From: an uncultured Rhodospirillales bacterium
Lineage (GTDB): Bacteria > Pseudomonadota > Alphaproteobacteria > Rhodospirillales > Casp-alpha2
Direction of reading: 5' to 3'
Length of the DNA stretch: 24,000 bases
Assembly (NCBI GenBank): GCA_965284225.1
Contig: CBDIRN010000002.1
Location: forward strand, 205,475-229,474
Position 1 is the first letter of the stretch. Each line of letters begins with the position of its first letter. The notes beneath the pieces were generated by a model. That model was given only the letters and a program-made list of their open reading frames with translations, searched no databases and had not been told where the DNA came from. The position numbers were made by a program, and so were the translations under genes. Of this stretch, positions 434-23,640 are shown piece by piece.

Positions 434-438
434 TCAGC

Positions 439-2699: not shown

Positions 2700-2937
2700 C
2701 CAAAGCTTCTATGAGGCCTGGCTGGAGCTAAGAGAGTCGTTCGTCCGCCGACTCGCCAGAAAATATTATGGGGTAGAGATCAGCGAAATCGGAATTCGTG
2801 CCTATAAGGTGTCGAGAAAGCCGTTAATCGCTGTCTTAGCAGAAATCCGCCGGAAGAATATCTTTGAAAGCACAATGTTCAGAGCAGGTCGCCGGGTTAG
2901 GATCGTGTTGAGGCGGAATCCGGTGAAACGTAGCTAA
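2683..2937 (+). CDS. Small hypothetical protein (84 aa), last gene of the operon
   Basis: ATG 2683 is preceded by a strong Shine-Dalgarno (GGGAGGA, 5 nt upstream) and overlaps the upstream gene's 3' end by 17 nt, which suggests translational coupling. The protein is basic with no recognisable domain. Confidence 0.55.
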   Translation: MAIGNDQSFYEAWLELRESFVRRLARKYYGVEISEIGIRAYKVSRKPLIAVLAEIRRKNIFESTMFRAGRRVRIVLRRNPVKRS

Positions 2938-3147
2938 CGGCCCTCTTAAATGATCCGGTTCTGTAGAGTGATTTACTAGCTGTGAGAGCACCTCAATATT
3001 CCGAACCGCGGCTCAAAGAACCAGATATGTTTGGTTCTCGACTAAGGGCGACTTTGGATCATCTGACTACTCTCAATATGGCGAAGAAGCTTCGTAAGCA
3101 GAATGAATTGTATGAAACTAGACACAACTTTCTAAATAATGGTGTAA

Positions 3148-4062: not shown

Positions 4063-4682
4063 GTGGAAAATTGACAGTTACTATCCCCGAAACACTTATC
4101 AAGTATTTTGGCGATAACGCATGGAAAAGTGCTGTGAACTCCTTGTTAGATCACAGCCCGAAGAAATATCCGCCCAACCTAAAATGGGAGGATCAGATTG
4201 ATTTCCATTCGGTATATGTGGCTGCACAGGTAACACGTTTGGATTACCATAAATTTGTTTATGACTTGTGGGATAAATGCTGGGATAACTTAAGCCGGAT
4301 CAAGAGCATTTGTGGTTCAGGTCAAAAGTGGGACGACGTGAAATACCTCGCTCCTTACGATGTTTGGGATGAGGGGTTATATAGAGAGTGTTCTGTTAAA
4401 GAATCTGCAAAAAGGTATGTGCAGCTTTTTGTAGATATTGAAGAGAATTACCTCACAGCTGGTTTGTATGTCAGTGCAAATAGAGAAAAAGACCAGGTTG
4501 ATGACTCCATTAGAAAATCTGTAGAAAACGCTATTGCTAGGGAAACCGAAATTTCAAATGATTACGTTATGTGGAAGCACGCTGAAAAACCAATTGTATT
4601 TGATCCGAATAAAAGTGTGATAGAGGTTGATATTTCAGATCTGAAAACGTCCTGCGACGACGCACTAAATGCTCTTAAGTAA
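4059..4682 (+). CDS. Hypothetical protein (207 aa) translationally coupled to the upstream nuclease
   Basis: There is an ATGA start/stop overlap at 4059-4062 and a GAAGGG about 9 nt upstream. No recognisable motif. The stop is 2 nt before the 25-bp repeat at 4685. Confidence 0.6.
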   Translation: MSGKLTVTIPETLIKYFGDNAWKSAVNSLLDHSPKKYPPNLKWEDQIDFHSVYVAAQVTRLDYHKFVYDLWDKCWDNLSRIKSICGSGQKWDDVKYLAPYDVWDEGLYRECSVKESAKRYVQLFVDIEENYLTAGLYVSANREKDQVDDSIRKSVENAIARETEISNDYVMWKHAEKPIVFDPNKSVIEVDISDLKTSCDDALNALK

Positions 4683-4684
4683 GT

Positions 4685-4709
4685 TGTCTAGCAAACTAGG
4701 GGCACCTCA
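4685..4709. repeat. Left copy of a perfect 25-bp inverted repeat (TGTCTAGCAAACTAGGGGCACCTCA)
   Basis: It is the exact reverse complement of 9949..9973. It looks like a transposon end: TG...CA termini with an internal GGGGCACCTCA. Confidence 0.85.
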
Positions 4710-4851
4710 ATCCGAGGCTGCCCCTGGCCGACAAACACATCAACCTGACGCATCTTCGAGACAATCTCTTCCGGTTTGTATCGTTTCGTTGCCATCTGTG
4801 CTCCTCCGTTTCCTATCAGAACCGGTAGACCAATTCAGTGGGGGAGGATCA
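4710..4851 (-). mobile_element. IS3-family insertion-sequence remnant: left terminal IR, SD and the first ~27 codons of orfA
   Basis: On the - strand, TGATCCTCCCCCACTGAATTGGTCTAC (4851->4825) is IS3-family-like (TG start, C-run). It is followed by GGAGGAGCACAG and ATG at 4795, encoding MATKRYKPEEIVSKMRQVDVFVGQGQP. This is typical of the N-terminus of the HTH_Tnp_1 / IS3-IS911 OrfA. The similarity ends near 4715, next to the 25-bp repeat. Confidence 0.6.
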
Positions 4852-5043
4852 ACTGTCGCTGTTTGGCCTTGGGGCGATGCGGACGGCTGAGAAGTTTGGA
4901 GGGAGGGCGCATTTGTTGACAGTGGCGCTGACGGCTTGACACTTGAATGTCCAGTCTCCAAAGCGTTCACCGACCGTGGGTTCTTCAGCCGATGCAGGCC
5001 CTGTGGCTAATCCCAAAAAACTACCAACGCCAAAAGGAACCAC
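4849..5043 (-). pseudogene. Truncated 5' fragment of a secreted IalB-like (invasion-associated locus B family) gene
   Basis: A signal-peptide-like MVPFGVGSFLGLATGPASA is followed by 'ERFGDWTFKCQ...NKCAL', which recalls the GDW.v.C...C motif of IalB-family proteins. The reading frame runs straight into the IS3 terminal repeat at 4851 and stops. Local G+C is higher than in the neighbouring cargo. Confidence 0.3.
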
Positions 5044-5201
5044 AATGGTTTCATCATTGTGCCAACCTCATCCAATCGTATTATTGTTATGTCTATGTTA
5101 TGCGTGATTCTCATTTAATTTCAATATGCTATGATTGTTCGAATGTTTTTGTTTTGCGCTGGAAATATTTCGATATCGAATGGATGTGAGGAGTGTGATC
5201 G

Positions 5202-7049
5202 ATGCGTCAGATACTAGGCCCAATTTCTTTTATCGCTGGCCTAGCGACTGGCGGTCTCCTCATAATAGTGGGACTCGTGGTCGTGACATTGGGTTCGGAC
5301 GTGGTAGCGGCTGATGCGTTCCCAAAGTTCCTCTATAAGTGGCAAACGCTATTCGCAGGGCTGTTCGGCATATTCGCGGGCGGTTTCGCTATCATTGCCG
5401 CCATCATCTCGGCCCGGCACGGCGAACGCTTTGCTGCTAAACAACAGAAGTTAAAGGAAGATGCACTTTGCACCATAATTAGGCAAGATACGATCCAGAC
5501 TCTACATGTGGTTTGTGAACTTGCCGTTTGGATAGATGTGCATGCTAGTAATCCAAACCACCCCATGCCCTATAAAAACTTCGTCATGGGTGAAAGCCTC
5601 GTGAATGTCTGGTCGGCTTTTCCCTTCGTGCCACCGCAAATCGCCAAGGAATTGTTCGAGTTTTCCCATGCCATGTTCGATTGTCAGATACGAACCAAGC
5701 AATTGGGAGAGCTGGACAAAATTGAACTCAGCGATCCAGCATCCAGGAGCTTCTTGAATTCCGTGGCCAGGGCCAGGTCGGCCGGGGAGGCTCTTCTTGC
5801 AGCACTCGATGCATCCCACTATGAACACGGAACATGCACCGAGCAGGTCTTGATGAAAGATAATCTCGGGTCGGGACAGAAAACAGCGTTGATCGTCTTC
5901 GCCCTCCTGGCCACTCTTAGCGCAGGGCTTTTCTTGCTGGCGGGGAACATGCCTGAAGACTGGCGTGGGCTCATGGGCACGCCGGTTTTGTATATCGTTC
6001 TGCTCTTGTTGGCGTTACATCTGTTGGTGATGGCCTTGCCGTTCCTGCTGTACGTCAGGAATCGCCCCATTCTGCTACAACGGGTCGAAGTCCTGGCGCT
6101 GCGCGAAAACGACGCCCCTATTTCGACGGGCGGATTGTTTAACGAATTCGTATCGACTTTCGTGATCGCACTTGTTGTCTCGATCATCACCCTATGCATC
6201 TATTGGGCCACCCACTGGTTTTCCGAGAACGGACATCTGATTTCTCTGACGGTGGCCATGGTGGCGCTGTTTTTGCTAAGCCTGTGGGCGAACCGTGATG
6301 AAGCCTTGATCAAAAATCTTTCTAAAACAACTCCCTTGATCGTGGTCACTGGCGGCTTGTCGTTCGGACTGTTTTTCGGTTTCAAAGAGCACGCTGGTCC
6401 TCTTGAAGTTCCCGAAATTATTGCTTGGTTGGTTCCCGCATCTTATTTGTGGCTCACCCTTCGGGAAAGGCTGAGAGGAAACAAGCAAGGAGGTGAGGCT
6501 GATGACCTGTCGCCATTTCAGCCTTTTCACCTGCTCTGGTACGTGTCCGAAATCATTCTTCGGAAAGTGCGGCGAGGGGCCACCGCCAATCAGGCATTTG
6601 CGATCCTTCTCACCCTTCTCATTTTTGTTTTGCCGGACCAAGTAGCAGCCGTAACCCCGGACGGCCTGGCTGCCATGTTTTCGGATGTCTGGAACCGGTT
6701 TGGCGAATTGTCGATAACCAAGGACCATGTCAGCTACGTGGCGCTTGCCGTCTTCGTGGCATTTTCGTGCAGCGACTTCGCATCGATCGTTCCTGATCTC
6801 GTGCCCGAAACGTGGCTCCTCCTTGGCGGCCTTTACAACGCGATCCTAAAGGCAGTTGTCGGACTGATCTTCCTGATCGCCATCGCGCCACTCTTTATTC
6901 TGCTCTTCGCTGTCGGTGATGCGTTCTTGGGGCCTGACCTCGCAATCATCGTCGGGTTCTTCACCTTCCCCTCCTGGTCGCAGCGTGTTTTTGCTCTCTT
7001 TGCCGCCGCCTTTACCCTGTCGTTTGATCATGCCGGTAGCGTAAGATAG
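5202..7049 (+). CDS. Polytopic inner-membrane protein of unknown function (615 aa)
   Basis: GAGGAG lies 8 nt upstream of ATG 5202. There are two N-terminal TM helices, a soluble insert of about 140 aa, and then roughly ten further hydrophobic helices. No family recognised. Confidence 0.7.
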   Translation: MRQILGPISFIAGLATGGLLIIVGLVVVTLGSDVVAADAFPKFLYKWQTLFAGLFGIFAGGFAIIAAIISARHGERFAAKQQKLKEDALCTIIRQDTIQTLHVVCELAVWIDVHASNPNHPMPYKNFVMGESLVNVWSAFPFVPPQIAKELFEFSHAMFDCQIRTKQLGELDKIELSDPASRSFLNSVARARSAGEALLAALDASHYEHGTCTEQVLMKDNLGSGQKTALIVFALLATLSAGLFLLAGNMPEDWRGLMGTPVLYIVLLLLALHLLVMALPFLLYVRNRPILLQRVEVLALRENDAPISTGGLFNEFVSTFVIALVVSIITLCIYWATHWFSENGHLISLTVAMVALFLLSLWANRDEALIKNLSKTTPLIVVTGGLSFGLFFGFKEHAGPLEVPEIIAWLVPASYLWLTLRERLRGNKQGGEADDLSPFQPFHLLWYVSEIILRKVRRGATANQAFAILLTLLIFVLPDQVAAVTPDGLAAMFSDVWNRFGELSITKDHVSYVALAVFVAFSCSDFASIVPDLVPETWLLLGGLYNAILKAVVGLIFLIAIAPLFILLFAVGDAFLGPDLAIIVGFFTFPSWSQRVFALFAAAFTLSFDHAGSVR

Positions 7050-7443
7050 CAGCAGGAAGCAGATTTCTCATGCCTTTGTGCAGCCATGAGAAAAGGGCGA
7101 TGGTTGTTTCCCAATTGCCTTTCCTCCGCAATTCTCCTTCCGTGATCGTGGCAGCATCAGAGTAAACCGACATGAGACCAGCGGGTATGGTCTTTAGCCT
7201 TTGTGGATAAAAAAGCCATTCCGTTATTTCAATAGTTCGCCCGATGTCATTCGTCTCGCTGTAATGATGGCTGGGTCAGAAAAGGTACTCATGGGCACTC
7301 TGATCCGCTCCTGATGTGCTTGTAGTGAATTATTCAGGCACAAGCATTAAGCCGTGTGTATGAAGAAATTCTACTTTATATTAATTTTATGAATCAATAC
7401 ACTCTCAATAGTAGCTACATACAGTACTGCTGTTGGAGTCTTT

Positions 7444-8445
7444 TTGCCATCAAAGCATTGGGGCCTTATGAAAAAAATGAGTGTAGATGTGTTCAAAGCT
7501 TTCTTTGAAACTGTATGGAAACCCCTATCCAATTTCAGTTCTGTTATTGGCCTGATCGCAACTTTCTACTTATCTGTATTTTATGTGCCCAGCTATGTGG
7601 AGGATATTACTAAAGGTAGAGGACAGGTGATCCATGAGAGCCTCATAGATGACCTTCAGGAGATTATCTTCTATGAGCAAGAACTTACCATTAAAGATAT
7701 TGAATCACTCATTCATGGCCGAGAGCTTCAGCAAGGCGTTAGCTACGAATACAATCCCGATGAACTTCTTGTCCAAGTGCAAGAACGTTTCATAGGGAAC
7801 AAGTTTATCCCCTTAGAGAAGCGCAGTGCTTTATTGGAACGCATTAAGTCTATTCGTATCACCTACAAACCAATAAAGGAGATAGATGAAGGCCCGATTG
7901 ATTGGCCGACCATACTGAGTTTAGTCACAGCAATGTTAGGGACGATCTTTTCCTTGCTCGTGATGCTTAGCGCATCAAAGAAATTCAAACTCGATAGTGA
8001 AGTTGCAGACGATATCATCTCTGATCAAATGTACGAGAGTGACGCTCCAGAATTTATTCGAGACGGCGCACCGCAACAATACGAAGAGATGGTCATTGAA
8101 GTGCTGACTGAGCTGGATGCTTTAAAAAGGCACTCAAGCCAAGGTTATGAAAACCAGTATGACTTTATTGCTGGGAACAATCGATGTGAATATATTGGTG
8201 AAGTTAAATGGCTTAGGCGCTTGCTTGGTTTTGGAACAGTAGTACGGTTTTTGCGCACCGTCAGTCATTCAGGAAAAAACGGTATACTTGTGATTAACAC
8301 TGGGATTACTGAAAGGGCTAAAAGTGCAATACGCGAACATAATGAAATAAACAAAGACCAACATGTTCACGTTATTACAGGTAAAACTAGAGAGTTTGTG
8401 AAAAGCCGTCTGAGCAATATTTTAAAAACTGATGCTGAAGATTAA
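7444..8445 (+). CDS. Membrane-anchored Mrr-like restriction-endonuclease-fold protein
   Basis: TTG 7444 has GGAG 5 nt upstream, with an alternative ATG at 7468. There are two TM helices ('VIGLIATFYLSVFYV' and 'WPTILSLVTAMLGTIFSLLVMLSA'). The C-terminus 'YDFIAGNNRCEYIGEVKW...GILVINTGITERAKSAI...VHVITGKT' follows the Mrr catalytic-domain layout (D...E-x-K, then kgi.vT.g.ft..A). Confidence 0.7.
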   Translation: MPSKHWGLMKKMSVDVFKAFFETVWKPLSNFSSVIGLIATFYLSVFYVPSYVEDITKGRGQVIHESLIDDLQEIIFYEQELTIKDIESLIHGRELQQGVSYEYNPDELLVQVQERFIGNKFIPLEKRSALLERIKSIRITYKPIKEIDEGPIDWPTILSLVTAMLGTIFSLLVMLSASKKFKLDSEVADDIISDQMYESDAPEFIRDGAPQQYEEMVIEVLTELDALKRHSSQGYENQYDFIAGNNRCEYIGEVKWLRRLLGFGTVVRFLRTVSHSGKNGILVINTGITERAKSAIREHNEINKDQHVHVITGKTREFVKSRLSNILKTDAED

Positions 8446-8498
8446 CAGATATTCTTGATAAGCCCTGCATTAGGAACAGAAGGTCACGACACACACTC

Positions 8499-9917
8499 AT
8501 GAATAAATATGACCAAGATTATGTGGACAAATTTTTTTCTGATATCTCATCTTGGTCTAAGGCTTACACGTCTATCGCCGTAAGTTACTTAGCTTTTCGT
8601 ATAGAAGAAGGGTACGCACTAACTAAAGCTCGGATATTCCTCGACGTGTGGCCCAGAGATATAGAAAGAACTCAAATTAAATTCGATAGCCTTCAAGCAG
8701 GTGTTTTCTACTTATCTGACATAGACATATCACCCGAAGATTATATCCAATGTTTGGAGGACGGTTCCTTCTCAACTCCACATGGCAAGCTGGTATTTCT
8801 TCCAGAAGATAGTGGTGCTTATTCCGCCTATTATGACCCGTATTTAAGCGAGGGGACTCAATCAAATTATCGACTTAGCCTCCTGTCAATTAGTGGTGGG
8901 GGAGTTAACCCTCAACCACGAAATACAGAGTTGGACTGGGAGCTTAAATCAGGGGAAAAGCCGTTTGATAATGTTAATGCACTGTTGATGGAGCTTGGCA
9001 TAGGAACAGTGAGTTCAGATAGAGCAGTAGTTGAGTATGTAGCGTCCAGTTGTTTAAAGCCCCATTCCGTAGAACCGTATGGAATGGTAGTAGGCAACAA
9101 AGCATGCCCAGCACTTCTAATTCCAAATAGCTTAGAAGCAGCAAAAACAACCCTCGGTTATCAAGTATATCATGACGGTAAGGTGATAGAACGGAAACGA
9201 ATAGAAGGTTCCGATCTACGATGGGAATTCATTCGGGGTGCAAACTTGGGCAGCAAGGAAATAACTATTCCCGAAGGCGCTGTTCTACAATGCTTTGGTT
9301 CCTATGCAGGAAGCACACAATTTCAGTGGTGGATGAGTGATCCAGCAACCGTACAGAACCCATTACGCACAGTGTACAACACATTTGATCAGGGGCTTGA
9401 AGTCTTACTTGATTATCTCGCTAAGGGGCCCGGCAAGGGGAATGCCCGAGATCTCGAAACGGCAATAGCTTGGTTGCTATGGATGCTTGGATTTAATGTG
9501 GTGCACTTGGGAGCTACACCTAGGAATCAAGAGGCCCCTGATTTAGTTGCATCAACATCATTGAAACACTTCTTTGTCATAGAATGCACTACTGATTTAT
9601 TGAAAGCAGATAACAAGTTACCGAAACTTATAAGTCGTAATGAGGCTCTACGCACCAGCTTGTATACATCCGGCAACCGTAACCTTAAGACTCTGCCAGT
9701 AATAGTATCATCCAAGAGTAGGAAAGAGGTTGCTGCTGATATTGAACAAGCTGAAAAGCTAGGTGTACTGGTTATCACAAGAGATGAAATATTAAAACTG
9801 CTTGATCAAACTTTAATGCTCCCAAATGCGGAAAACATATACCTTGAAGCTGAGCTTAAGGTGAAAAAAGCAGTTGATAAGCATTCGCCGAACAAAGACT
9901 TTTTGAACCATTCGTGA
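8499..9917 (+). CDS. Hypothetical protein (472 aa) with a C-terminal PD-(D/E)xK-like domain and a novel N-terminal region
   Basis: The C-terminus 'ETAIAWLLWMLGFNVVHLG...APDLVASTSLKHFFVIECTTDLLKADNK' has a literal P-D and an E-C-T in place of ExK, with Lys residues just downstream. The roughly 300-aa N-terminal region matches nothing I recognise. The stop is 5 nt before a 38-bp Tn3-like repeat. Confidence 0.6.
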   Translation: MNKYDQDYVDKFFSDISSWSKAYTSIAVSYLAFRIEEGYALTKARIFLDVWPRDIERTQIKFDSLQAGVFYLSDIDISPEDYIQCLEDGSFSTPHGKLVFLPEDSGAYSAYYDPYLSEGTQSNYRLSLLSISGGGVNPQPRNTELDWELKSGEKPFDNVNALLMELGIGTVSSDRAVVEYVASSCLKPHSVEPYGMVVGNKACPALLIPNSLEAAKTTLGYQVYHDGKVIERKRIEGSDLRWEFIRGANLGSKEITIPEGAVLQCFGSYAGSTQFQWWMSDPATVQNPLRTVYNTFDQGLEVLLDYLAKGPGKGNARDLETAIAWLLWMLGFNVVHLGATPRNQEAPDLVASTSLKHFFVIECTTDLLKADNKLPKLISRNEALRTSLYTSGNRNLKTLPVIVSSKSRKEVAADIEQAEKLGVLVITRDEILKLLDQTLMLPNAENIYLEAELKVKKAVDKHSPNKDFLNHS

Positions 9918-9921
9918 AGAG

Positions 9922-9959
9922 CGTTTAGTGATGCGTAGATGCGATTTCTGAGGTGCCCC
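9922..9959 (-). repeat. Tn3-family-like 38-bp terminal inverted repeat (outer end at 9959, reads leftwards)
   Basis: The reverse complement reads GGGGCACCTCAGAAATCGCATCTACGCATCACTAAACG. From memory, Tn21-subgroup IRs read GGGGGCACCTCAGAAAACGG...ACGCTAAG, with an outer GGGG and an inner CTAAG. This needs alignment against ISfinder/TnCentral. It overlaps the 25-bp repeat by 11 bp. Confidence 0.4.
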
Positions 9960-9973
9960 TAGTTTGCTAGACA
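9949..9973. repeat. Right copy of the perfect 25-bp inverted repeat (TGAGGTGCCCCTAGTTTGCTAGACA)
   Basis: It is the exact reverse complement of 4685..4709. The pattern TG..TGCCCCTA......AGACA also resembles IS3-family (IS2-like) terminal repeats as I recall them. Confidence 0.85.
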
Positions 9974-10114
9974 CCTTCCACATTCATCGTGGCCGCCAGA
10001 ATTCAGAAGGCCCTCAAAGCTGCCCAGCGCCCTTTATGGGCGATATTCGTCGTATTGGCCCTAATCTTGTTTAATCTCATATATTGATCGCTAAAGAATG
10101 AATACTTCCAGACA

Positions 10115-11149
10115 ATGCCCTTGCCGCCGCTAGAATTCTTCGAAAATGCTCTAGATTACAGCCGAGTTGATCTTCTGGAGGACATCTTGGCCAATCAGGG
10201 CATGTCCGGCGCATTCACCAGGAGAACACTCGAAGCTTATAACAAGGGAAAGAAGCCTCAGAAATCAAAGGGCTTGGTGCTTGAAAAAGCCTTCGAGGGT
10301 TACGCGGAAGGTGCCAGACTCAATCATATAATTGAGGCAGTCAATGAAGCAGAAGAGGGTACCGGCCTCCTAAATGACACTTACGCAGGCCCTTGGCTTC
10401 AAATCATATCGGGATATGAAATTAGATGCGCAGAGCCCGTATTTTGGACAACAGAGGCTCGCAGGGCCCTTAGATGCGCACTTGAATTACGCGATATCGC
10501 GCAAGGTAAATCTACACGCATTCCGTCAGAAGTGATCGACGATGCAAATCTGCCAAAAACGAGGACCTACCAAGAGGTTATTAGACGGCTCCGTAAATAC
10601 GAGGCTGATCGGAATTGTTTGGATGAACAATTACTCACACCAATCTATCTAGAGACAGCCTTGTTTATAATGGCATGTCACGATTTTGAGCACGGCGATT
10701 CCAACTACGTAACACTCATAGACAAGGACGCGCCCGCTTCAAAACAAAGCCCGATGACAAAGCTCATCTTAAAAATGCGTGAAATACGTCAGATTTCAAG
10801 TTACGCGAAGATCAGCGAATTTCTCCTCCCAGATCAATCACCAGAATCCGCCCTCACAGAAATCAAAAAGTGGCGCAAGGGTAACCGGTATCCGAACTGG
10901 AAAAACGTAAAAAAGTGGCCCAGCAAATTCCCAGAGATAGAACCCTTTGCAATTTACTGGGCCGTTGGTTATGCCAGAATAATCCAAGAGATTTTCAAGA
11001 AGGCCGTCGACCTAGAAAAGGACTTGGATTGGTTCCGCGCTGATTGGATCGCCGAAAGCCGAGATGTAATCGGTTTTCACGTCCCCGACAGATATCACTC
11101 GTTACTATCTTCCAAGTCGTCAGGGCGACCGTCTTCGCCGCGAGATTGA
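10115..11149 (+). CDS. Hypothetical protein (344 aa) with two XRE-type HTH-like segments
   Basis: 'RRTLEAYNKGKKPQKSKG' and 'ISSYAKISEFL...ALTEIKKWRKGNRYPNWKNV' both resemble the recognition-helix '..is.wE.G.r.P' signature of Xre-family HTH domains. Nothing else is recognisable. Confidence 0.55.
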   Translation: MPLPPLEFFENALDYSRVDLLEDILANQGMSGAFTRRTLEAYNKGKKPQKSKGLVLEKAFEGYAEGARLNHIIEAVNEAEEGTGLLNDTYAGPWLQIISGYEIRCAEPVFWTTEARRALRCALELRDIAQGKSTRIPSEVIDDANLPKTRTYQEVIRRLRKYEADRNCLDEQLLTPIYLETALFIMACHDFEHGDSNYVTLIDKDAPASKQSPMTKLILKMREIRQISSYAKISEFLLPDQSPESALTEIKKWRKGNRYPNWKNVKKWPSKFPEIEPFAIYWAVGYARIIQEIFKKAVDLEKDLDWFRADWIAESRDVIGFHVPDRYHSLLSSKSSGRPSSPRD

Positions 11150-11232: not shown

Positions 11233-11950
11233 TGTCGTTCTCCTTATATCGAGTTCTGCCATCTACATGGAGCAGGGGATTCTGCCCTTGTTTGATAGAT
11301 GGCTCCTATCAACCAGTGAACGATACCCGGACCTGCCAGGACACAGACAGGAGGCAAAATTGGAAAAATGCGTAGTACATGGGTAGTAATCGGGTTCGTA
11401 ACAGATTGACCGTCTCGTAGGTCTCCCGAAACCGACCAACGCCTGAGCCGCAATATCCTCCACAAATCGCGCCGCCGGGCACGCTACAGGTGCCATAATA
11501 TTAACCCGCCAAAACCGCACCGACCATCCGCGTCAGATCTGAAAATTTTTGGGGGACGGGAGTTTTCCAGCGATCCGCCTCAGACTTTGAGTCCAGCGCT
11601 TCAGACTTTGTGTCTGTTTACACCTTTACTCGGGCGGCATTTCAATTGCAGTTAAGAAAAAATGATCGAACGGCTAAAATATTAAAAATCACAAATAACT
11701 CTCCATATCTTGATGGCAAATTTCGGCTATCATCGAATCCGCAGTCATTACTTCTATGTAAGACCGCCGGTATTAAGATCGCCGAGTCATGAGTCTGCAT
11801 GCCCTTGCACAAATAGATTTTTTGAATTTCTGGCTATATCGATAATTCGTGCAATGCTTCGAATCCTTTTCATTCACTTTTGTGATAATCTGGATTAGGT
11901 TAACCGATAAGTATTATCAGAAACTAAAATTCTATCGAGTATAGTAAAAT

Positions 11951-13762
11951 ATGCAAAGACCAATGTGGGCCGACAAAGAATCAGATGTTGATTACTTAAA
12001 CTTCTCCGAGGTTGCTGATGTTGCGGCGTCAATGATTAAGCAACCTGGGTTGTTACCGTTGTCGATTGGTATTTATGGAGGGTGGGGTGCAGGCAAATCG
12101 ACTACCTTGCGCCTAATTCATGCGAGTCTTCAGCGGGGATCGCCAAAGGATGATACGTTAGTAATCGAGTTCGACGCTTGGCTGTATCAAGATTTTGATG
12201 ACGCCCGCGCTGCTTTGATGGACGTAATTACTTCGCGTTTAATGGAAGCGTCTAAAGACCACGAAGGCTTGGCCGAGAAGGCAAAGTCGCTCATCGCGCG
12301 TGTCGATTATTTTCGAGCAGCAGGATTGCTGGCAGACGTAGGAATGTCAGCTCTAATCGGTGTTCCGCCTGGTATCTTGTCGCGGGCTGTCGATGGCGCA
12401 AAAAAAATGTGGTCAGGTGATAGTAGCGAGGGAGATATATCAGATTTTAAACAGGCTGGCGCCGATGTGATTTCAACGGGTAAGAGCTTATTAAAGCCTG
12501 AGGAAGTGACCTCGCCACCAAGAGAAATTGCCGCATTCAGAGAAGAATTTGGCAGTTTGTTAAGCGAACTAAATGTTACGCTTGTGGTGTTTATCGACAA
12601 CCTTGATAGGTGTTTGCCGAAGAAAGCGATCCAGACTTTGGAGGCTGTACGTCTTTTTCTTTTCTTGCCAAAAACAGCATTTGTCATTGCCGCCGACGAA
12701 GACATGATCCGACACGCTGTGCGTGAACACTATGCTGGGCCTGATGATCGATTGGTTACTGATTACTTAGACAAAATGGTGCAAGTTTCACTTCGCGTCC
12801 CCCGAGTTGGGGTCCAAGAGACCAAAGCGTATCTGATGCTATTATTCGCAGAGGCCGCTGGGGCGGAAGTTGAGAAACTTCAGCAACTGCGAGAAGGCCT
12901 TATTGAAATTCTTCGATCACTCTGGAAAGGCGAGCCAATTACACCGAAGATTGCTAGAGGGCTTTTAGGCGCTTCGGAGAGCAGCGATATTGCTAACGAT
13001 CTCGAAATGGCGGATCGGCTAGCTCACGTTTTGGCGACAGCACCAAATATTCAAGGCAACCCAAGAATTGTGAAAAGACTACTGAATACCGTACGCATTC
13101 GTACGGTAATTGCGCAGCAAAGGGGGATGAACCTTGATGAGGCGCTAATTGCAAAATTGGCGGTACTAGAGCGCTGTACCAACGATCCAGCCTTCAGCTC
13201 ATTCTGTCAAATGGTAGCATTATCAACGAACGGAGCTCCGCATGAGATCGCAGCAATGGAAGAAGTGGTTGATGATCCCGCAGCTTTTGAAGAAGCATGC
13301 CCTGAAGCTCTGAGCAATTATTCTAGTTTTCTACGCGAATGGTGCAAAATTCCGCCAGACTTAGCCGGAAGAGACTTGCGCCCTGCTATCTACCTTAGCC
13401 GCGATGCAGCGCCTGTGTCCTTAGCTGCTAAAAGATTATCTGCAGAAGCGACAAGTCTGTTTGAAACATTAGCTTCAGCACCAAGTCTGACATCCGCAGC
13501 GAGTAAAAACGCTGCTAAGGATGTATCGCAGGAAGATGCACCAGCGATCATGACAGCGCTGATTTCGGAACTACGGCGGATTGATAATTGGGAGAAGCGC
13601 CCGAAAGAGTTCACCGGCGCGTTACTTCTTGCAGACCAACATAGTCCGGTCCAGCAGCCTCTTTCTCAGTTTGTGGCGAGTCTGAAAATAAAGCCGGTCC
13701 CAGCATGGTTAATGCAGGTCTGTCGGCAGCGACTTTGGATGCAAAATGGGAGTAGTGCTTGA
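11951..13762 (+). CDS. qatA: QatA: KAP-family P-loop NTPase
   Basis: Walker A is 'GIYGGWGAGKST' and Walker B is 'LVVFIDNLDRCLP', the KAP hallmark (..IDdLDRc). The N-terminal 'W.DKESDVDYLNF' is typical of KAP NTPases. It is the first gene of a 4-gene overlapping operon with a QueC-like gene and a TatD gene. Confidence 0.85.
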   Translation: MQRPMWADKESDVDYLNFSEVADVAASMIKQPGLLPLSIGIYGGWGAGKSTTLRLIHASLQRGSPKDDTLVIEFDAWLYQDFDDARAALMDVITSRLMEASKDHEGLAEKAKSLIARVDYFRAAGLLADVGMSALIGVPPGILSRAVDGAKKMWSGDSSEGDISDFKQAGADVISTGKSLLKPEEVTSPPREIAAFREEFGSLLSELNVTLVVFIDNLDRCLPKKAIQTLEAVRLFLFLPKTAFVIAADEDMIRHAVREHYAGPDDRLVTDYLDKMVQVSLRVPRVGVQETKAYLMLLFAEAAGAEVEKLQQLREGLIEILRSLWKGEPITPKIARGLLGASESSDIANDLEMADRLAHVLATAPNIQGNPRIVKRLLNTVRIRTVIAQQRGMNLDEALIAKLAVLERCTNDPAFSSFCQMVALSTNGAPHEIAAMEEVVDDPAAFEEACPEALSNYSSFLREWCKIPPDLAGRDLRPAIYLSRDAAPVSLAAKRLSAEATSLFETLASAPSLTSAASKNAAKDVSQEDAPAIMTALISELRRIDNWEKRPKEFTGALLLADQHSPVQQPLSQFVASLKIKPVPAWLMQVCRQRLWMQNGSSA

Positions 13763-14519
13763 TGGGTACATCATCGTCAAAAGGGGGCTCTGGGGGTACT
13801 TCCCTTTGCTGCCACCTTGGGTGGATCAAGGGCCCGGACCGCTGCCTGAGCCAGATAAAGATCGGTTCCGTACTTTCAGACTTAAACTCGGAAAATTCGT
13901 AAGCTCAGGAGATGCGAAGGACCTTCGATCGGCAGTTGGCCATTTTGCGAGATCGTCATCTGGAGGTGCATCTGTCGCCAAGACTCGAATTTCTCCAATT
14001 GCGACCGTTGGCGGAAATCTGATTGGCCTCATATCTGATCTCCAAAGCGGCGGCGACGGGACAGCACTAGCAGGGGAGGATTTGTCCTCGTGTTTGGGTG
14101 CAGAAATTGATGTCGCAATCGAAAAAATCGTAGAAGCCCTGACACCAGACAACGGGGATGCCGACAAGATTAGTGCTGCAATGCAATCGGCACTCCTAGA
14201 AGTTTTGGAAGATGATGCATCTTTTGATCCGTTATCAATTTCGAGCGACGATTTGGTATCATTGATTTCTGCGTATTTGGTAGAAGCTATCTTCTTATGG
14301 ATAATTTCGGAGAGTGATAAATCTTTCCAAAAAGCAGATTCCGGTCCTAAAGCGAACAAGGCAGAAGCGAGTTTGAGAGAACTTGTCAAAGTTTCGGTTG
14401 AAGATGCATTAGGCGCAAAAAATTTAACAAATATAGGTGCATTAAAGCCAAACGACATTGCAGAACTTGAACGCGAAGTAACGCATGAGGTTTTCCAAGT
14501 GTGGGAGGGTTACGAGTGA
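13746..14519 (+). CDS. qatB: QatB-like protein. The 5' end is uncertain, with a possible frameshift (see finding).
   Basis: It sits between the KAP NTPase and the QueC-like gene, as in Qat operons. No known domain. The listed ATG 13746 lacks an SD. An out-of-frame ATG at 13762 has TGATG coupling and a GGGAG SD. Confidence 0.65.
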   Translation: MGVVLDGYIIVKRGLWGYFPLLPPWVDQGPGPLPEPDKDRFRTFRLKLGKFVSSGDAKDLRSAVGHFARSSSGGASVAKTRISPIATVGGNLIGLISDLQSGGDGTALAGEDLSSCLGAEIDVAIEKIVEALTPDNGDADKISAAMQSALLEVLEDDASFDPLSISSDDLVSLISAYLVEAIFLWIISESDKSFQKADSGPKANKAEASLRELVKVSVEDALGAKNLTNIGALKPNDIAELEREVTHEVFQVWEGYE

Positions 14520-15826
14520 CAACAGTGATATGTTCACATGACGAACTTAGGCTGAGTGCCTGCCCCGCCGACAGCTTGAAAGTGTTGCTCTATGGAGCCG
14601 CTTCTTCGCTTGGTTATGGTTCAATTGGAAATCGCATCCATGATGAATTCATAAAGAAGTTACCATCACCTCCTGATGCTAGAGCAATTGATTTTTTGAC
14701 AATTGCGCTCTCAGTGATTGCAGCTGATACATTTGTTCTTAGAGCGAATTCCGCAGATAGGTGGGTACGCGAAATTCATCTCATTATTGAATTGGCAAAC
14801 CCATCGCCTTGGTATGCAACAGTTTCCAATATCGAGCGAGCACTTTCGTTTTTGAGTGGTGACAAATGGAATATTGAGATTAGAGCTAATGGTTACAGTC
14901 CTGCGCCTATGCCTAAGCAGCCTGGTATTCCTGATTGCGTATGTCTTTTTTCTGGAGGTCTGGATAGTGCAGTAGGTGCGGTTGATTTGCTGAGTAAAGG
15001 AAGAAAGCCGCTATTAGTATCTCACGCATATTCAAAAGATCGACAAATCCAGCAATTGTTGCTGAACCGCTTGGGAACATTTGTACCTTATTCAGTTGGT
15101 ACAAATGTAAACGCGACAAGGGTCCAACTCGGCTCTAATCAATATATCAATGATACGTCAATGCGAGCGAGGAGTTTACTATTTCTAGCACTTGGGGCTG
15201 TTGCTGCGTCAAGCGTATCGTCTATGAATGCGGGCGCGGTTACGGAGTTGTATGTGCCGGAAAATGGCTTCATTTCTGTAAACCCACCGTTGACCAATCG
15301 TCGGCTCGGAAGCCAAAGCACGAGAACCACACATCCTAACTTTCTCCGGCAAATTCAGTTAATTTTGGATAGTGTTGGTTTACCTGTTAAACTGATTAAT
15401 CCTTATCGAGGGTTGACCAAAGGGCAGATGTTGAAGCAGTGCGCCAACCAACAGCTTCTCTCAAAAATCGCGAAATCAACAGTATCTTGTGGCAAATGGA
15501 AACGAAAAAATAAACAGTGTGGACGTTGTCTCCCTTGCCTAATTCGTCGCGCTGCTCTCCATGCAGCGAGTATGGCAGACAATACGGATAACGGATACGT
15601 CGACCTTGATCTCAAAAAAATTATGAAGAATGAGTTGCTGCGTGATGATGTGCTGGCAGTGATGATCGCCATCGACAAATATTCAGGGACTGATATGGTC
15701 CGATGGGCGATTGCCAATGGACCGTTGCCCGGTGATGTCGCCGAAAGACAGTTAAGAATTGCCGCAGTTCAGAATGGTCTAGCGGAATTAGAGGATTTTC
15801 TAAGGCACGAAGGATGCATCCCTTAA
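14501..15826 (+). CDS. qatC: QatC: QueC-like PP-loop ATPase
   Basis: The PP-loop is 'CLFSGGLDSAVGA' (SGGxDS). The C-terminal Cys cluster 'SCGKWKRKNKQCGRCLPCLIRR' matches the QueC zinc motif (CxxCxxC). The more likely start is GTG 14516, which forms a GTGA overlap with the qatB stop and has GGGAGGG 6 nt upstream. Confidence 0.85.
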   Translation: MGGLRVTTVICSHDELRLSACPADSLKVLLYGAASSLGYGSIGNRIHDEFIKKLPSPPDARAIDFLTIALSVIAADTFVLRANSADRWVREIHLIIELANPSPWYATVSNIERALSFLSGDKWNIEIRANGYSPAPMPKQPGIPDCVCLFSGGLDSAVGAVDLLSKGRKPLLVSHAYSKDRQIQQLLLNRLGTFVPYSVGTNVNATRVQLGSNQYINDTSMRARSLLFLALGAVAASSVSSMNAGAVTELYVPENGFISVNPPLTNRRLGSQSTRTTHPNFLRQIQLILDSVGLPVKLINPYRGLTKGQMLKQCANQQLLSKIAKSTVSCGKWKRKNKQCGRCLPCLIRRAALHAASMADNTDNGYVDLDLKKIMKNELLRDDVLAVMIAIDKYSGTDMVRWAIANGPLPGDVAERQLRIAAVQNGLAELEDFLRHEGCIP

Positions 15827-16557
15827 TTGATCTTCACTGCCATTTGGATTTGTATCCAGACCCATTTTCAGAAATTCGCTCCGCTATTGCTCAGAATGCG
15901 TACATTCTATCAGTGACGACAACTCCAAAGGCTTGGAGAACTACTGCTCGAATTGCTGCCGATGCGCCTCGAATTAAAACCTCTTTGGGATTCCATCCGC
16001 AGTTGGTAGGAGAGCGAGCACATGAAATCGAGCTTTTCGAGGAATTGCTGCCATCGGCTGAATATGTTGGAGAAATTGGTTTAGACGGAAGTCGAGATTT
16101 CAAAGACACATTTGATGTGCAGCTTAAGGTATTTCGAAAAATCCTACAATTGATGTCTAAGAACGGGGGACGAATTTCTTCTATTCATAGCCGTGGGGCT
16201 GCAACAGAGACGCTTGATGAAATTGAAAAAGCTCCTGGGGCAGGCACGCCCATTCTTCATTGGTTTTCGGGAAGTAAGGCCGAACTGAAACGAGCAATCG
16301 ATCTAGGCTGTTGGTTTTCCGTTGGCCCTGCGATGCTTCGAGGTAAGAAAGGAGTGGCACTTGTTAATATGATGCCTCCTGGGAGAATCCTGACAGAGAC
16401 CGATGGCCCTTTTGGTAAGAATGGAAAAGAGCCGCTCCGGCCTGCTGAAGTGGGTCTAGCATTAAAGGAATTATCTGTTTGTTGGGGATGCTCATTTGAA
16501 AGTGCAGCATCCAAGGTTGCTCAGAATCTTCGATGTATTTTGGATGGAAGAACGTAA
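15814..16557 (+). CDS. qatD: QatD: TatD-family metal-dependent hydrolase/DNase
   Basis: TatD signature blocks are present: 'LIDLHCHLD' (HxH), 'EIGLDG', 'IHSR', 'LHWFSGS' and 'ETDGPF'. It overlaps qatC by 13 nt. Confidence 0.9.
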   Translation: MHPLIDLHCHLDLYPDPFSEIRSAIAQNAYILSVTTTPKAWRTTARIAADAPRIKTSLGFHPQLVGERAHEIELFEELLPSAEYVGEIGLDGSRDFKDTFDVQLKVFRKILQLMSKNGGRISSIHSRGAATETLDEIEKAPGAGTPILHWFSGSKAELKRAIDLGCWFSVGPAMLRGKKGVALVNMMPPGRILTETDGPFGKNGKEPLRPAEVGLALKELSVCWGCSFESAASKVAQNLRCILDGRT

Positions 16558-16650
16558 TATTTTTTTGAAAAGTGTGCAGTTGTCGCTGAAGGGTATTGTT
16601 GAGCTAGAGGAAAACCTGAGTTCAGAATTTTTTTCACCTTCTTCTGCCAT

Positions 16651-16678
16651 CTAGACCTACCCCAGTGAAAGAGGCTCG
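16651..16678. repeat. Degenerate IS3-family IRL-like terminal repeat, with its outer end to the right
   Basis: CTAGACCTACCCCAGTGAAAGAGGCTCG aligns with the IS3 remnant end at 4825-4851 (GTAGACCAATTCAGTGGGGGAGGATCA). Shared blocks are TAGACC, CAGTG, GAGG and TC, with one indel. Confidence 0.35.
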
Positions 16679-17008
16679 GGGGTACACCCGAAGTGGGGCT
16701 CAGAGCAAAACCACCTGTTATTTTCTTTAATTTACAATGACGATGAATGACAAACTTTCAGTTACACTACCGCCGGACGCTGTTCATGGGCAGAAAGAAA
16801 ATTTCACGATTTTCGGTACCTAATAACCCAACCCTCATGGAAACTGTAGATCAATCCACCCCGTCTCCGGGGGTATAGAAGGCTAGGCTTTGCAAATTGC
16901 AAAACCAGCGATATCAATAGCTTATCCTATCTGGCCAAATCCCTGTCGGCTCGATGGCAAAACTATGGCGACTAAACGTGCAGAACTATACGTTCCCCTA
17001 CACACGCC

Positions 17009-20751
<3,743 letters not shown>

Positions 20752-22175: not shown

Positions 22176-23640
22176 TCACCCTTCGAGCATACGCCGTAAA
22201 AGCTCGACGTCTTCCGCGAATCCGGGATCCATGGACTTCAGTTCCTCGACCTTGCGAACGGCGTGCATCACGGTTGTATGGTCCCTGCCGCCGAACTTGC
22301 GACCGATTTCAGGCAGCGATCTCGCCGTCAGCTGTTTCGACAAGTACATGGCGACCTGACGCGGACGGGCGACCGAGCGGGCGCGGCGCGCTGAATGCAT
22401 GTCCGAGATGCGGATATTGAAATGATTGGCGACCTGTTTCTGGATTTCCTCGATGGTCACGCGGCGATCATTGGCCCTGAGGAGGTCATGCAGGACTTCC
22501 TGCGTTGCCTCAATGGTGATGTCGCGACCGATCAGCTGTGCATGGGCAACGACGCGGTTCAGCCCGCCTTCCAGCTCACGCACGTTCGATGTGATCTTGT
22601 GGGCCAGGAATTCCATGACCTTGGGCGGTATATCGGCCCTGATCTGCGCGGCCTTCGACTGCAGGATACCCAGAGCGCAATTCATACGTGGTCGCGTGAA
22701 TATCCGCCACCAGGCCACAGTTAAGGCGCGAAATCAGTCGTTCTTCCATCCCGACCAGATCAGAAGGCGACTTGTCAGCGGAAATGACGATCTGCCGACC
22801 CTAGCCAACCAGCGCATTGAAAGTGTGGAAGAACTCTTCCTGCGTTGATTCCTTGCCGGCGATAAACTGCACATCATCAATCATCAGAACATCAACGGAC
22901 CGGAACTGGTCCTTGAAATCCATGGTCGTGCTTTCACGGATCGCCTGAACAAAGCGATGCATGAATTTCTCAGCGGAGAGATAGAGCACCGTGCGCTCAG
23001 GCGTGGTCTGGCGGATGTGCCAGGCAATTGCATGCATGAGATGGGTTTTGCCGAGACCGACACCACCATAAAGAAACAGCGGATTGAACGGCACACGCTC
23101 GGCTTCGGCGACGCGCCTGGATGCGGCGTAGGCAAATTCGTTGGGCTTGCCGACGACAAAGTTATCGAAAACAAAACGCGCATCAAGACCGGCGCTCAAC
23201 CCCTGCCTGCCGCCCGACATATCACGCGGCGCTTCACTTGCAGCCGGCGTTTGCCGTTTGATGCCTTCACGAGGCTGCTGGGGAGACCTGTCGCTGCGCA
23301 CGGAGACTTCCAGCGACGCCACTTCAGGCACTTCCGAATGCCACAGCGTTGCAATTCTTTCAGCGTAGTGCGCGACAACCCAGTCCCGCATGAAACGGGT
23401 CGGCACGGTTACATGCACAACCCCGTCCTGAACGGCTCTGATCTTGATCGGCTTGATCCAGCTTTGAAAAGCCGCTTCACCGATCTCTTCGCGGAGCTGT
23501 GTGTTGACGGTCGTCCACTGCGCGAGGATGACATCTCTGTCCGCTTCTTGCGGGTCATCGTCTAGCTTGTTCGATGGTGCGCCACTGGACGTCGCGTCGA
23601 TCATGCGTCGGTTGCCCCCCTTGGATAGGCTTGTTTTCAA
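22176..23640 (-). pseudogene. dnaA: Chromosomal replication initiator DnaA, interrupted as sequenced by an in-frame TAG and a 1-nt frameshift
   Basis: The N-terminal ORF (22801..23640) has 'GGVGLGKTHL' and 'DDVQFIAGKESTQEEFFHTFNALVG' and then TAG (+ strand cta, 22801-22803). The same frame continues [42 protein letters not shown]. The remainder ([10 protein letters not shown]...DNA-binding domain 'GGRDHTTVMHA') is in a different frame (ORF 22176..22718). The start is TTG 23640 or ATG 23604. Confidence 0.85.

What the first reader, a model, noticed from the sequence alone, without database searches (positions are those of the whole stretch)
11951..16557. Complete QatABCD-type operon (KAP NTPase, QatB, QueC-like enzyme, TatD)
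All four genes overlap or abut: TGATG between qatA and qatB, GTGA between qatB and qatC, and a 13-nt overlap between qatC and qatD. Catalytic motifs are intact: Walker A/B in QatA, SGGxDS and the Cys cluster in QatC, and the HxH/EIGLD/ETDGP blocks in QatD. This gene set matches the Qat system named in the 2022 systematic defence screen (QueC-like associated with ATPase and TatD DNase). Its mechanism is largely unresolved. QueC chemistry is ATP-dependent activation of 7-carboxy-7-deazaguanine. This raises the possibility that QatC conjugates or generates a deazapurine signal or modification rather than making preQ0, since no other que genes (queD/E/F, folE) are present here.
Basis: partly seen in the sequence, partly recalled or inferred. 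Interest (0 to 1): 0.7.

Follow-up and report, generated by a model that had tools for sequence, protein, structure and literature searches.

The report
Known QatABCD operon, qatB frameshifted
This is an ordinary member of the already described QatABCD anti-phage defence system, but as sequenced its qatB gene lacks one base, which separates the essential N-terminal acceptor motif from the rest of the protein.

Summary
The four genes are at the stated coordinates (qatA 11951-13762, qatB, qatC 14516-15826, qatD 15814-16557). All four hit the PADLOC Qat models end to end (E 3.6e-195, 1.6e-60, 8.9e-111, 4.5e-91). QatC and QatD pass NCBI's curated equivalog cut-offs. Every published catalytic residue is present.

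The operon is not "complete" as sequenced. The TGATG start codon (ATG 13762) encodes the conserved MGTS N-terminus of QatB, but that frame stops after 46 codons. The QatB body lies in the -1 frame. The closest relative (81% nt identity) shows that one base is missing at 13802-13804. All 83 other Qat loci surveyed in detail have MGTS in frame with the body.

The lesion is either very recent or an artefact. dN/dS for the qatB body is 0.075, the same as its neighbours. The essential dnaA gene in the same window also carries a stop codon and a frameshift, so record errors are plausible.

The QatC active site is remodelled and the reaction has not been reconstituted in vitro. Qat was named in 2020, not 2022. 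Low novelty and low interest.

The parts
11864..11950 (+). Leader immediately upstream of qatA that is conserved with the closest homologous cassette. It marks the left edge of the shared unit.
   Evidence: blastn of L001 against the window aligns only 11864-16553, at 81% identity.
11951..13762 (+). qatA, a KAP-family P-loop NTPase of 603 aa. Walker A GGWGAGKS is at 12077-12100 and Walker B IDNLDR is at 12593-12610.
   Evidence: PADLOC QatA E 3.6e-195, profile positions 1-592 of 593. Pfam KAP_NTPase E 2.4e-53. NCBIfam QatA scores 446 bits, below its 600 cut-off. The D-N Walker B is present in all 71 QatA sequences read.
13748..13752 (+). GGGAG Shine-Dalgarno-like sequence 9 nt upstream of the canonical qatB start.
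   Evidence: Read directly from the sequence.
13762..13902 (+). Canonical qatB start (ATG within TGATG) and the 5' fragment. It encodes MGTSSSKGGSGGTS, then out-of-frame residues, and stops at TAA 13900-13902 (46 codons).
   Evidence: Translation. MGTS is the N-terminus in all 83 other loci. The literature reports that G2 is essential and is the modification site.
13802..13804 (+). Site of the single-base deletion. The C-run is CCC where CCCC would restore TCC CCT TTG, reading S-P-L.
   Evidence: DNA alignment with L001-L003. It is the only uncompensated indel in the coding regions of the 4.7-kb alignment. Restoring one base gives MGTSSSKGGSGGTSPLLPPW, with the anchor proline at residue 15 as in 81 of 83 loci.
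13746..14519 (+). Long qatB ORF as sequenced (257 aa, MGVVLDG...). The part homologous to QatB runs from about 13805 (PLLPPW tail anchor) to the stop at 14517-14519.
   Evidence: PADLOC QatB E 1.6e-60, residues 17-256 against profile positions 12-248 of 248. It is identical to database protein P0001, which carries precomputed Pfam PF28083 QatB. It is 88% identical to P0002.
14516..15826 (+). qatC, a QueC-like PP-loop ATP pyrophosphatase of 436 aa starting at GTG 14516. SGGLDS is at 14951-14968, TRTTHP at 15320-15337 and the Zn Cys cluster at 15488-15550.
   Evidence: PADLOC QatC E 8.9e-111. NCBIfam QatC 372.5 bits, above the 280 cut-off. PDB QatC 9zee_B E 3.7e-60 and 9vlk_A E 1.9e-55. Motif tests.
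15814..16557 (+). qatD, an HxH-type TatD-family nuclease of 247 aa. HCH is at 15835-15843, EIGLD at 16072-16086 and ETDGP at 16396-16410.
   Evidence: PADLOC QatD E 4.5e-91. NCBIfam QatD 312.8 bits, above the 230 cut-off. PDB 3gg7_A E 1.6e-71 and 9xsn_A E 4e-65. All published metal and catalytic ligands are present.

Best explanation
This is a standard QatABCD anti-phage defence cassette. It sits in a low-GC genomic island next to gyrB.

Mechanism, taken from experiments on orthologues and not shown for this locus:
- QatC is a remodelled QueC-fold PP-loop enzyme. It uses ATP to adenylate a carboxylate substrate, either 7-carboxy-7-deazaguanine or something close to it.
- It then transfers that group to the free amine of Gly2 of QatB. 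Gly2 is exposed after Met1 removal and is delivered into the QatC active site by QatB's long disordered N-terminal tail.
- The QatB-QatC complex is the core of the defence.
- QatD, a TatD-type 3'-5' exonuclease and AP endonuclease, binds this complex. QatA is a DNA-binding KAP NTPase oligomer. Both widen the range of phages that are blocked.

In this record, qatB has a one-base deletion 14 codons after its start. No single reading frame encodes the MGTS acceptor, the PLLPPW tail anchor and the helical body together. I think the deletion is most likely an error in the sequence record, so the real operon would be intact and functional. A very recent genuine knockout is nearly as likely.
For: Identity:
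- All four PADLOC Qat models match over their full length.
- The NCBIfam QatC and QatD equivalogs are above their cut-offs.
- Solved QatC, QatB and QatD structures are the top PDB matches.
- QatC-specific motifs are present and QueC/Cap9 motifs are absent.
- All QatD ligands are present: H8, H10, H61, E87, D91, H125, H149, E195, D197.
- Operon order and junctions match L001.

Frame break.

Uniqueness: 83 of 83 other loci have MGTS in frame with the body. Five more metagenome loci match the restored QatB from residue 1 to 251/252.

Recent or artefactual origin:
- dN/dS for the qatB body is 0.075, against 0.077-0.098 for qatA, qatC and qatD, and there are no other lesions.
- The deletion lies in a short C-run.
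- dnaA, an essential gene in the same window, has an in-frame TAG at 22803-22801 and a 1-nt insertion at about 22674. The stitched protein matches the DnaA equivalog at positions 1-437 of 437 with 568.6 bits.

Mechanism: PMC13279940, PMC13639016, PMC13376578, PMC13434339 and PMC13329287.
Against: - Whether the deletion is an artefact cannot be decided without the reads.
- The two dnaA lesions are a substitution and a non-homopolymer insertion. They are not typical homopolymer errors, and gyrB, recF and dnaN are intact. Error density is therefore uneven.
- Defence genes are often genuinely inactivated.
- QatA and QatB score below the NCBIfam equivalog cut-offs, at 446 bits against 600 and 72.7 bits against 100. 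This subtype is divergent from the characterised E. coli and P. aeruginosa systems.
- The chemistry of QatC is not settled. The CDG-recognising Tyr/Asp pair is replaced by Thr/Thr, in vitro reconstitution failed in two laboratories, and NDG was detected only at low level.
Confidence: 0.52

Rival explanations
1. The one-base deletion is real. This copy of Qat is a very recently disabled system. Translation from the coupled ATG 13762 gives a 45-residue peptide, and any QatB body that is made lacks the correct acceptor tail. G2D and tail-deletion mutants of orthologues lose defence in the same way.
For: - The frame break is in the public record: the gene-called protein P0001 is identical to the 257-aa ORF.
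- Short homopolymers are also natural slippage sites.
- The QatB N-terminus and tail are essential in orthologues.
- Other Qat loci show genuine damage of other kinds. L039 has a 2-kb insertion between qatB and qatC, and L004 and L005 have a shortened qatA.
Against: - None of the 83 other loci surveyed in detail shows this kind of lesion.
- There is no sign of relaxed constraint on any of the four genes.
- An essential gene in the same window is also broken, which points to errors in the record.
Confidence: 0.38
2. The frameshifted gene still yields a working QatB. This could happen by initiation at ATG 13746, giving MGVVLDG..., which also exposes a Gly2. It could also happen by -1 ribosomal frameshifting or transcriptional slippage between codons 2 and 15 of the 13762 frame.
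For: - The 13746 ORF by chance also begins Met-Gly and keeps the PLLPPW anchor and the whole body.
- A -1 slip at TCA AAA GGG would restore the spacing so that W falls at residue 20 (inference).
Against: - All 83 homologues have G-T-S at residues 2-4, and 81 of 83 place the anchor proline at residue 15. The 13746 product has GVV and places the anchor at residue 20.
- ATG 13746 has no good Shine-Dalgarno sequence, whereas 13762 has GGGAG at -9 and is coupled to the qatA stop.
- There is no canonical X XXY YYZ heptamer and no homopolymer longer than 5 nt.
- The closest relatives read straight through in one frame, so no recoding signal is conserved.
Confidence: 0.07
3. The QueC-like gene is a housekeeping queuosine/preQ0 enzyme, or a type IV CBASS Cap9, and the neighbouring genes are unrelated.
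For: There is weak local similarity to QueC: Pfam QueC E 7.5e-10 over residues 279-355 only. The SGGxDS loop and a Cys cluster are shared.
Against: - TIGR00364 QueC scores 28.3 bits against a cut-off of 150.3.
- The YxQxHxxE, VPxRN, YPDC and Cap9 YxDC motifs are absent.
- The protein is 436 aa with N- and C-terminal extensions.
- No queD, queE, queF or folE gene and no CD-NTase appears among the window's ORFs of 120 aa or more.
- The four genes are conserved as a block in more than 80 genomes.
Confidence: 0.01

Closest known systems
QatABCD of E. coli NCTC9009 (Gao et al. 2020; QatC and QatB-QatC structures 9vlk/9vll)
   Same: - Same four genes in the same order.
- QatC shares SGGxDS, TxT-HP, Px4TK and the Zn Cys motif (E 1.9e-55 to 9vlk_A).
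- QatB has the MGTS N-terminus, a disordered tail and a helical body (E 4.6e-12 to 9vll_A).
   Different: - QatB and QatA belong to a divergent subtype. The best PADLOC models are PDLC02212 and PDLC02210, and both proteins score below the NCBIfam equivalog cut-offs.
- The tail anchor Trp is at residue 20 here. In P. aeruginosa QatB it is Trp18, per PMC13279940.
- The Zn motif spacer is shorter, C-x9-C against C-x19-C.
- qatB here is frameshifted.
P. aeruginosa QatABCD (Gao, Wassarman and Kranzusch 2026; QatB-QatC structures 9zee/9zef)
   Same: - QatC aligns over residues 37-436 (E 3.7e-60).
- S146/D150/S151, H170, R219, F223 and T269/T271 correspond to Pa S156/D160/S161, H180, R233, F237 and T278/T280.
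   Different: - Sequence similarity is moderate for QatC. QatB is barely detectable by sequence (E 7.5e-05).
- This locus has not been tested functionally.
Type IV CBASS Cap9-CdnD deazaguanylation (Wassarman et al. 2025)
   Same: The proposed chemistry is the same. A QueC-fold enzyme adenylates a 7-deazaguanine carboxylate and transfers it to the N-terminal Gly of a partner protein that carries an MG(T/G)S start.
   Different: - There is no CD-NTase here.
- QatC is about 250 residues longer than Cap9, going by the Cap9 median length reported.
- QatC has replaced the Tyr/Asp CDG-recognition pair with Thr/Thr, so its substrate may differ.
Metagenomic Qat cassette L001-L003 (ENA contigs; QatB P0002)
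   Same: This is the nearest relative. It is 81% nt identical over window 11864-16553 and 84-88% aa identical. It has the same TGATG junction, the same 4-nt qatB/qatC overlap and the same 13-nt qatC/qatD overlap.
   Different: - Its qatB is uninterrupted (MGTSSSKGGSGGGSPLLPPW...).
- The flanking genes are unrelated, so the cassette is the shared and probably mobile unit.

Membership tests
QatABCD anti-phage system | Co-directional four-gene operon in the order KAP NTPase, QatB, QueC-like protein, TatD nuclease, with tightly coupled junctions | tested here: met
   ORF layout and junctions TGATG, GTGA and the 13-nt overlap. The same layout is seen in L001 and in 80 reference-genome loci.
QatABCD anti-phage system | QatA is a KAP-family P-loop NTPase that matches QatA profiles | tested here: met
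   PADLOC PDLC02210 E 3.6e-195 over the full length. Pfam KAP_NTPase E 2.4e-53. Walker A is present, and the family-invariant IDNLDR Walker B is found in 71 of 71 sequences. Caveat: the NCBIfam QatA equivalog scores 446 bits, below its 600 cut-off.
QatABCD anti-phage system | A QatB helical body that matches QatB profiles | tested here: met
   PADLOC PDLC02212 E 1.6e-60. Precomputed Pfam PF28083 QatB on the identical protein P0001. PDB 9vll_A E 4.6e-12. Caveat: NCBIfam QatB scores 72.7 bits, below its 100 cut-off.
QatABCD anti-phage system | QatB N-terminal MGTS (Gly2 acceptor) joined in one polypeptide to the tail anchor and the body | tested here: not met
   MGTS (ATG 13762) and the PLLPPW anchor plus body (frame of 13746) are in different frames. 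One base is missing at 13802-13804. The feature is met in 83 of 83 other loci. It would be met here if a single C were restored.
QatABCD anti-phage system | QatC is a QueC-fold protein with SGGxDS, the Thr-x-Thr + HP and Px4TK motifs, a Zn Cys motif and N- and C-terminal extensions (about 400-460 aa) | tested here: met
   SGGLDS at 146, TRTTHP at 269, PYRGLTK at 296, C325-x9-CGRCLPCLIRR, length 436 aa. NCBIfam QatC 372.5 bits, above the 280 cut-off. PDB QatC E 3.7e-60.
QatABCD anti-phage system | [quoted passage not shown] | tested here: met
   H8, H10, H61, E87, D91, H125, H149, E195 and D197 correspond to the published H8, H10, H60, E86, D90, H124, H148, E194 and D196. NCBIfam QatD 312.8 bits, above the 230 cut-off.
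QatABCD anti-phage system | Protection against phage, and modification of QatB Gly2 by QatC | not testable with these tools
   Known only for the E. coli and P. aeruginosa orthologues.
Canonical QueC (preQ0 synthase, queuosine pathway) | TIGR00364 equivalog score, the catalytic motifs YxQxHxxE, VPxRN and YPDC, and queD/E/F neighbours | tested here: not met
   28.3 bits against a cut-off of 150.3. All three motifs are absent. No que genes appear among the window's ORFs of 120 aa or more.
Type IV CBASS (Cap9/Cap10/CD-NTase) | A short Cap9 of about 185 aa that retains the QueC active site (Y/FxQx5E, YxDC), next to a CD-NTase with an MGGS start | tested here: not met
   The Cap9 motifs are absent and the protein is 436 aa. 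No PADLOC or Pfam CD-NTase hit in the window.

The most novel reading that the evidence does not exclude
The one-base deletion is real and is tolerated or used by the cell. One version is a natural on/off switch at a short C-run for a costly defence system. Another is a split arrangement, in which a free 45-residue peptide carrying the MGTS acceptor end is made separately from a tail-less QatB body. That peptide could still be modified by QatC in trans or could act as a decoy.
Probability: 0.04. Interest if true: 0.45.

Novelty: already known. Interest (0 to 1): 0.14.

Why it matters
It adds little.
- QatABCD is in PADLOC, DefenseFinder-type resources, Pfam and NCBI's annotation models.
These are the HMM calls, the catalytic mutants, mass spectrometry of QatB, the QatD nuclease assay and queC complementation.

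Two practical points come out of this work:
- Automated annotation called a 257-aa QatB with a false N-terminus (MGVV...) and hid a frameshift that removes the essential acceptor motif.
- The same record has a broken dnaA, so its sequence quality should be checked before this locus is used for cloning or for comparative statistics.

Tried and rejected
- Programmed -1 frameshifting or transcriptional slippage to rescue qatB. There is no canonical slippery heptamer, no homopolymer longer than 5 nt, and the closest relatives do not conserve it. Rejected as unlikely.
- ATG 13746 as the true start. Rejected as the ancestral start because 83 of 83 homologues begin MGTS with the anchor at residue 15.
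- The QatA Walker B D-N as a defect. Rejected, because it is present in all 71 QatA sequences read.
- Apparent tail-less QatB proteins elsewhere. P0003 in L004 is a gene-caller start error and its DNA encodes MGTSASGKG... in frame. L039 seemed to lack qatB, but it has an intact qatB separated from qatC by a 2-kb insertion.
- Search for the same lineage with an intact C-run. An exact 31-mer scan of metagenome contigs gave 0 hits. A protein-based metagenome scan gave relatives of at most 41% identity. The reference-genome scan gave at most 51% identity. Exact-protein look-ups of QatD, QatB and QatA found no contig. The source organism and its accession were therefore not identified.
- Rfam scan of the whole window, for example for a preQ1 riboswitch in the 800-nt leader: no family reached threshold.
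- Promoter and terminator scans were not above shuffled expectation.
- Repeat search found no convincing cassette-flanking repeats.
- No tRNA genes were found.
- My first frame-survey script wrongly flagged 12 loci that use GTG or TTG starts. This was corrected.
Full report
**Observation**

- 11951-13762, 603 aa.
- A 257-aa ORF ending at 14519.
- An ORF ending at 15826.
- 15814-16557, 247 aa.

The junctions are as described:
- The qatA stop and an ATG share TGATG, with the ATG at 13762.
- The qatB stop and a GTG share GTGA, with the GTG at 14516.
- qatC and qatD overlap by 13 nt.

GTG 14516 is the real qatC start. It gives the N-terminus MTTVICSHD, which is conserved in homologues, and it reproduces the 4-nt overlap called in the closest relative L001.

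**Identity**

- All four proteins match the PADLOC Qat models over essentially their full length: QatA 3.6e-195, QatB 1.6e-60, QatC 8.9e-111 and QatD 4.5e-91.
- NCBI's curated equivalogs for QatC (372.5 bits, cut-off 280) and QatD (312.8 bits, cut-off 230) are passed.
- QatA (446 bits against 600) and QatB (72.7 bits against 100) fall short of their equivalog cut-offs. This is a subtype divergent from the seed sequences.
- Pfam gives KAP_NTPase, a partial QueC match and TatD_DNase.
- The best solved-structure matches are QatC (9zee_B at 3.7e-60 and 9vlk_A at 1.9e-55), QatB (9vll_A at 4.6e-12) and TatD-type proteins (3gg7_A at 1.6e-71 and 9xsn_A at 4e-65).
- The housekeeping QueC model scores 28.3 bits against a cut-off of 150.3.

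I also applied the criteria of the 2026 QueC-family survey (PMC13329287). The window's QatC has SGGLDS, T-R-T-T-H-P, P-x4-T-K and a C-x9-CGxCxxCxxRR zinc motif. It lacks YxQxHxxE, VPxRN, YPDC and the Cap9 variants.

The residues shown to matter in P. aeruginosa QatC are S156/D160/S161, H180, R233, F237 and T278/T280. They correspond here to S146/D150/S151, H170, R219, F223 and T269/T271.

The ligands described for A. baumannii QatD are H8, H10, H60, E86, D90, H124, H148, E194 and D196. All of them are present here, shifted by one residue after position 10.

The QatA Walker B reads D-N instead of D-D/E, but this holds in all 71 QatA sequences I could read. It is a family trait.

**The frame break in qatB**

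The ATG in TGATG (13762) is 16 nt downstream of the ATG that opens the long QatB ORF (13746), so the two are in different frames.
- From 13762 the sequence reads MGTSSSKGGSGGTSLCCHLGW... and stops at TAA 13900-13902.
- From 13746 it reads MGVVLDGYIIVKRGLWGYFPLLPPWVDQ... and continues into the QatB body.

The closest homologue is P0002, 88% identical, on loci L001-L003. It reads MGTSSSKGGSGGGSPLLPPWVDQ... in one frame.

The DNA alignment shows that the window lacks one base where L001 has TCTCCGTTG and the window has TCCC-TTTG. Restoring one C in the CCC run at 13802-13804 gives MGTSSSKGGSGGTSPLLPPW.

Across the 4.7-kb alignment with L001, this is the only uncompensated indel inside a coding region.

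**Why this matters**

Three independent papers agree on the following points (PMC13279940, PMC13639016, PMC13376578):
- The MGTS N-terminus of QatB is highly conserved.
- Met1 is removed, and Gly2 sits in the QatC active site.
- G2D mutations, N-terminal tags and deletions of the conserved Pro/Trp tail segment abolish defence.

**How unusual the break is**

I surveyed 80 Qat loci from reference genomes plus L001, L004 and L006.
- In 83 of 83, an ATG, GTG or TTG followed by G-T-S is in frame with the QatB body.
- In 81 of 83, the first proline of the tail anchor is at residue 15.
- 71 of 83 have Trp at residue 20.
- Five further metagenome loci match the restored QatB from residue 1 to residue 251 or 252.

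The window is the only exception. Neither product it can make as sequenced has the full arrangement. The 13762 product has MGTS but no anchor and no body. The 13746 product has the body but begins GVV and places the anchor at residue 20.

**Real mutation or artefact?**

The evidence points to a very recent event or an error, not to old decay.
- dN/dS against L001 is 0.075 for the qatB body, against 0.084, 0.098 and 0.077 for qatA, qatC and qatD. There are no further stops or indels.
- dnaA in the same window is split. It has an in-frame TAG at 22803-22801 and a one-base insertion near 22674.
- When the two dnaA lesions are repaired conceptually, the protein matches the DnaA equivalog from position 1 to 437 of 437 at 568.6 bits. 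The fragments alone score 271.8 and 220.1 bits, below the 343.9 cut-off.

A free-living bacterium is not expected to carry a doubly disrupted dnaA in the canonical dnaA-dnaN-recF-gyrB locus, so the record probably contains errors.

Two points weigh against this. gyrB, recF and dnaN are full length. The dnaA lesions are also not homopolymer-type errors.

My estimates are about 0.5-0.55 that the qatB deletion is an artefact, about 0.4 that it is a real recent knockout, and less than 0.1 that the gene is rescued by an alternative start or by recoding. On rescue:
- There is no canonical slippery heptamer and no long homopolymer.
- No recoding signal is conserved in relatives.
- ATG 13762 has the Shine-Dalgarno sequence and the stop-start coupling.

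**Mechanism**

Everything here comes from work on orthologues. Nothing has been tested for this locus.

Shown in orthologues:
- QatB and QatC form a 1:1 complex that is the minimal defence unit against some phages.
- QatC binds ATP through the PP-loop, and its catalytic residues are essential.
- The QatB N-terminus lies in the QatC active site, positioned like CdnD in Cap9.
- An NDG-modified GTSKAY peptide was detected by LC-MS/MS at low level.
- E. coli QatC does not complement a queC mutant.
- QatD is a Mg-dependent 3'-5' exonuclease and a Ca-dependent AP endonuclease that is inhibited by NTPs.
- QatD binds QatB-QatC through the QatB N-terminal region.
- QatA binds DNA and forms heptamers or octamers.

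Inferred:
- QatC adenylates 7-carboxy-7-deazaguanine or a related acid and transfers it to Gly2.
- How modified QatB stops phage is unknown.

The Thr/Thr replacement of the CDG-binding Tyr/Asp pair, and the failure to reconstitute the reaction in vitro, leave the identity of the substrate open.

**Context**

- The cassette lies at the right end of a low-GC island (about 43-50% GC). The island abuts the 3' end of gyrB, where GC rises to 57-59%.
- Homology to L001 covers only 11864-16553, so the four genes with a short leader form the shared unit.
- No que, folE or CD-NTase gene appears among the window's ORFs of 120 aa or more.
- No Rfam family reaches threshold and no tRNA gene is found.

**Verdict**

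The identification is right and the hypothesis was sound, but both are already in the literature and in standard annotation models.
- Qat was named by Gao et al. 2020, not in a 2022 screen.
- Novelty: already known.
- Interest: low.

Noticed in passing
window 22176-23640 (- strand): The essential replication initiator gene dnaA is broken twice. It has an in-frame TAG at 22803-22801 and a one-base insertion near 22674. The repaired reading matches the DnaA equivalog end to end (568.6 bits). This suggests errors in the sequence record, or an unusual organism.
   Followed up: yes
window 50-11149 (+ strand): Nine co-directional ORFs of 127-615 aa lie in the same low-GC island upstream of qat. None has a significant match in Pfam, NCBIfam, PADLOC or PHROGs. 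The only hits are weak coiled-coil/ZorA-like ones for 439-1716 and a sub-threshold PD-(D/E)XK hit for 3148-4062. They may be uncharacterised defence genes.
   Followed up: partly
window about 16560-17010: Island boundary. GC jumps from about 0.46 to about 0.59 immediately downstream of the gyrB stop (17009). The core genes gyrB, recF, dnaN and dnaA follow on the minus strand. No tRNA, integrase or flanking repeat was found within the window.
   Followed up: partly
window 11576-11614: A tandem 18-nt near-repeat (CGCYTCAGACTTTGWGTC, spacing 21 nt) lies in the 800-nt non-coding leader about 340 nt upstream of qatA. It could be an operator. It lies outside the part of the leader that is conserved with L001.
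   Followed up: no
L039 2946-4977 (Candidatus Electrothrix laxa): A 2-kb insertion separates an intact qatB from qatC in this Qat locus. It was not characterised.
   Followed up: no
L004 4721-5824 and L005 182-1240: In these Qat loci qatA is only about 352-367 aa, against about 600 aa elsewhere, and in L004 it lies next to a phage-type integrase. It appears to be N-terminally truncated. The gene caller also set the qatB start too late (194 aa), although the MGTS start is in frame.
   Followed up: partly
window 13746-14519, and database protein P0001: Automated gene calling on the public record annotated QatB as a 257-aa protein starting MGVVLDG. This hides the frameshift and gives a false N-terminus. 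It is an example of the start-site misannotation noted by Gao et al. 2026.
   Followed up: yes
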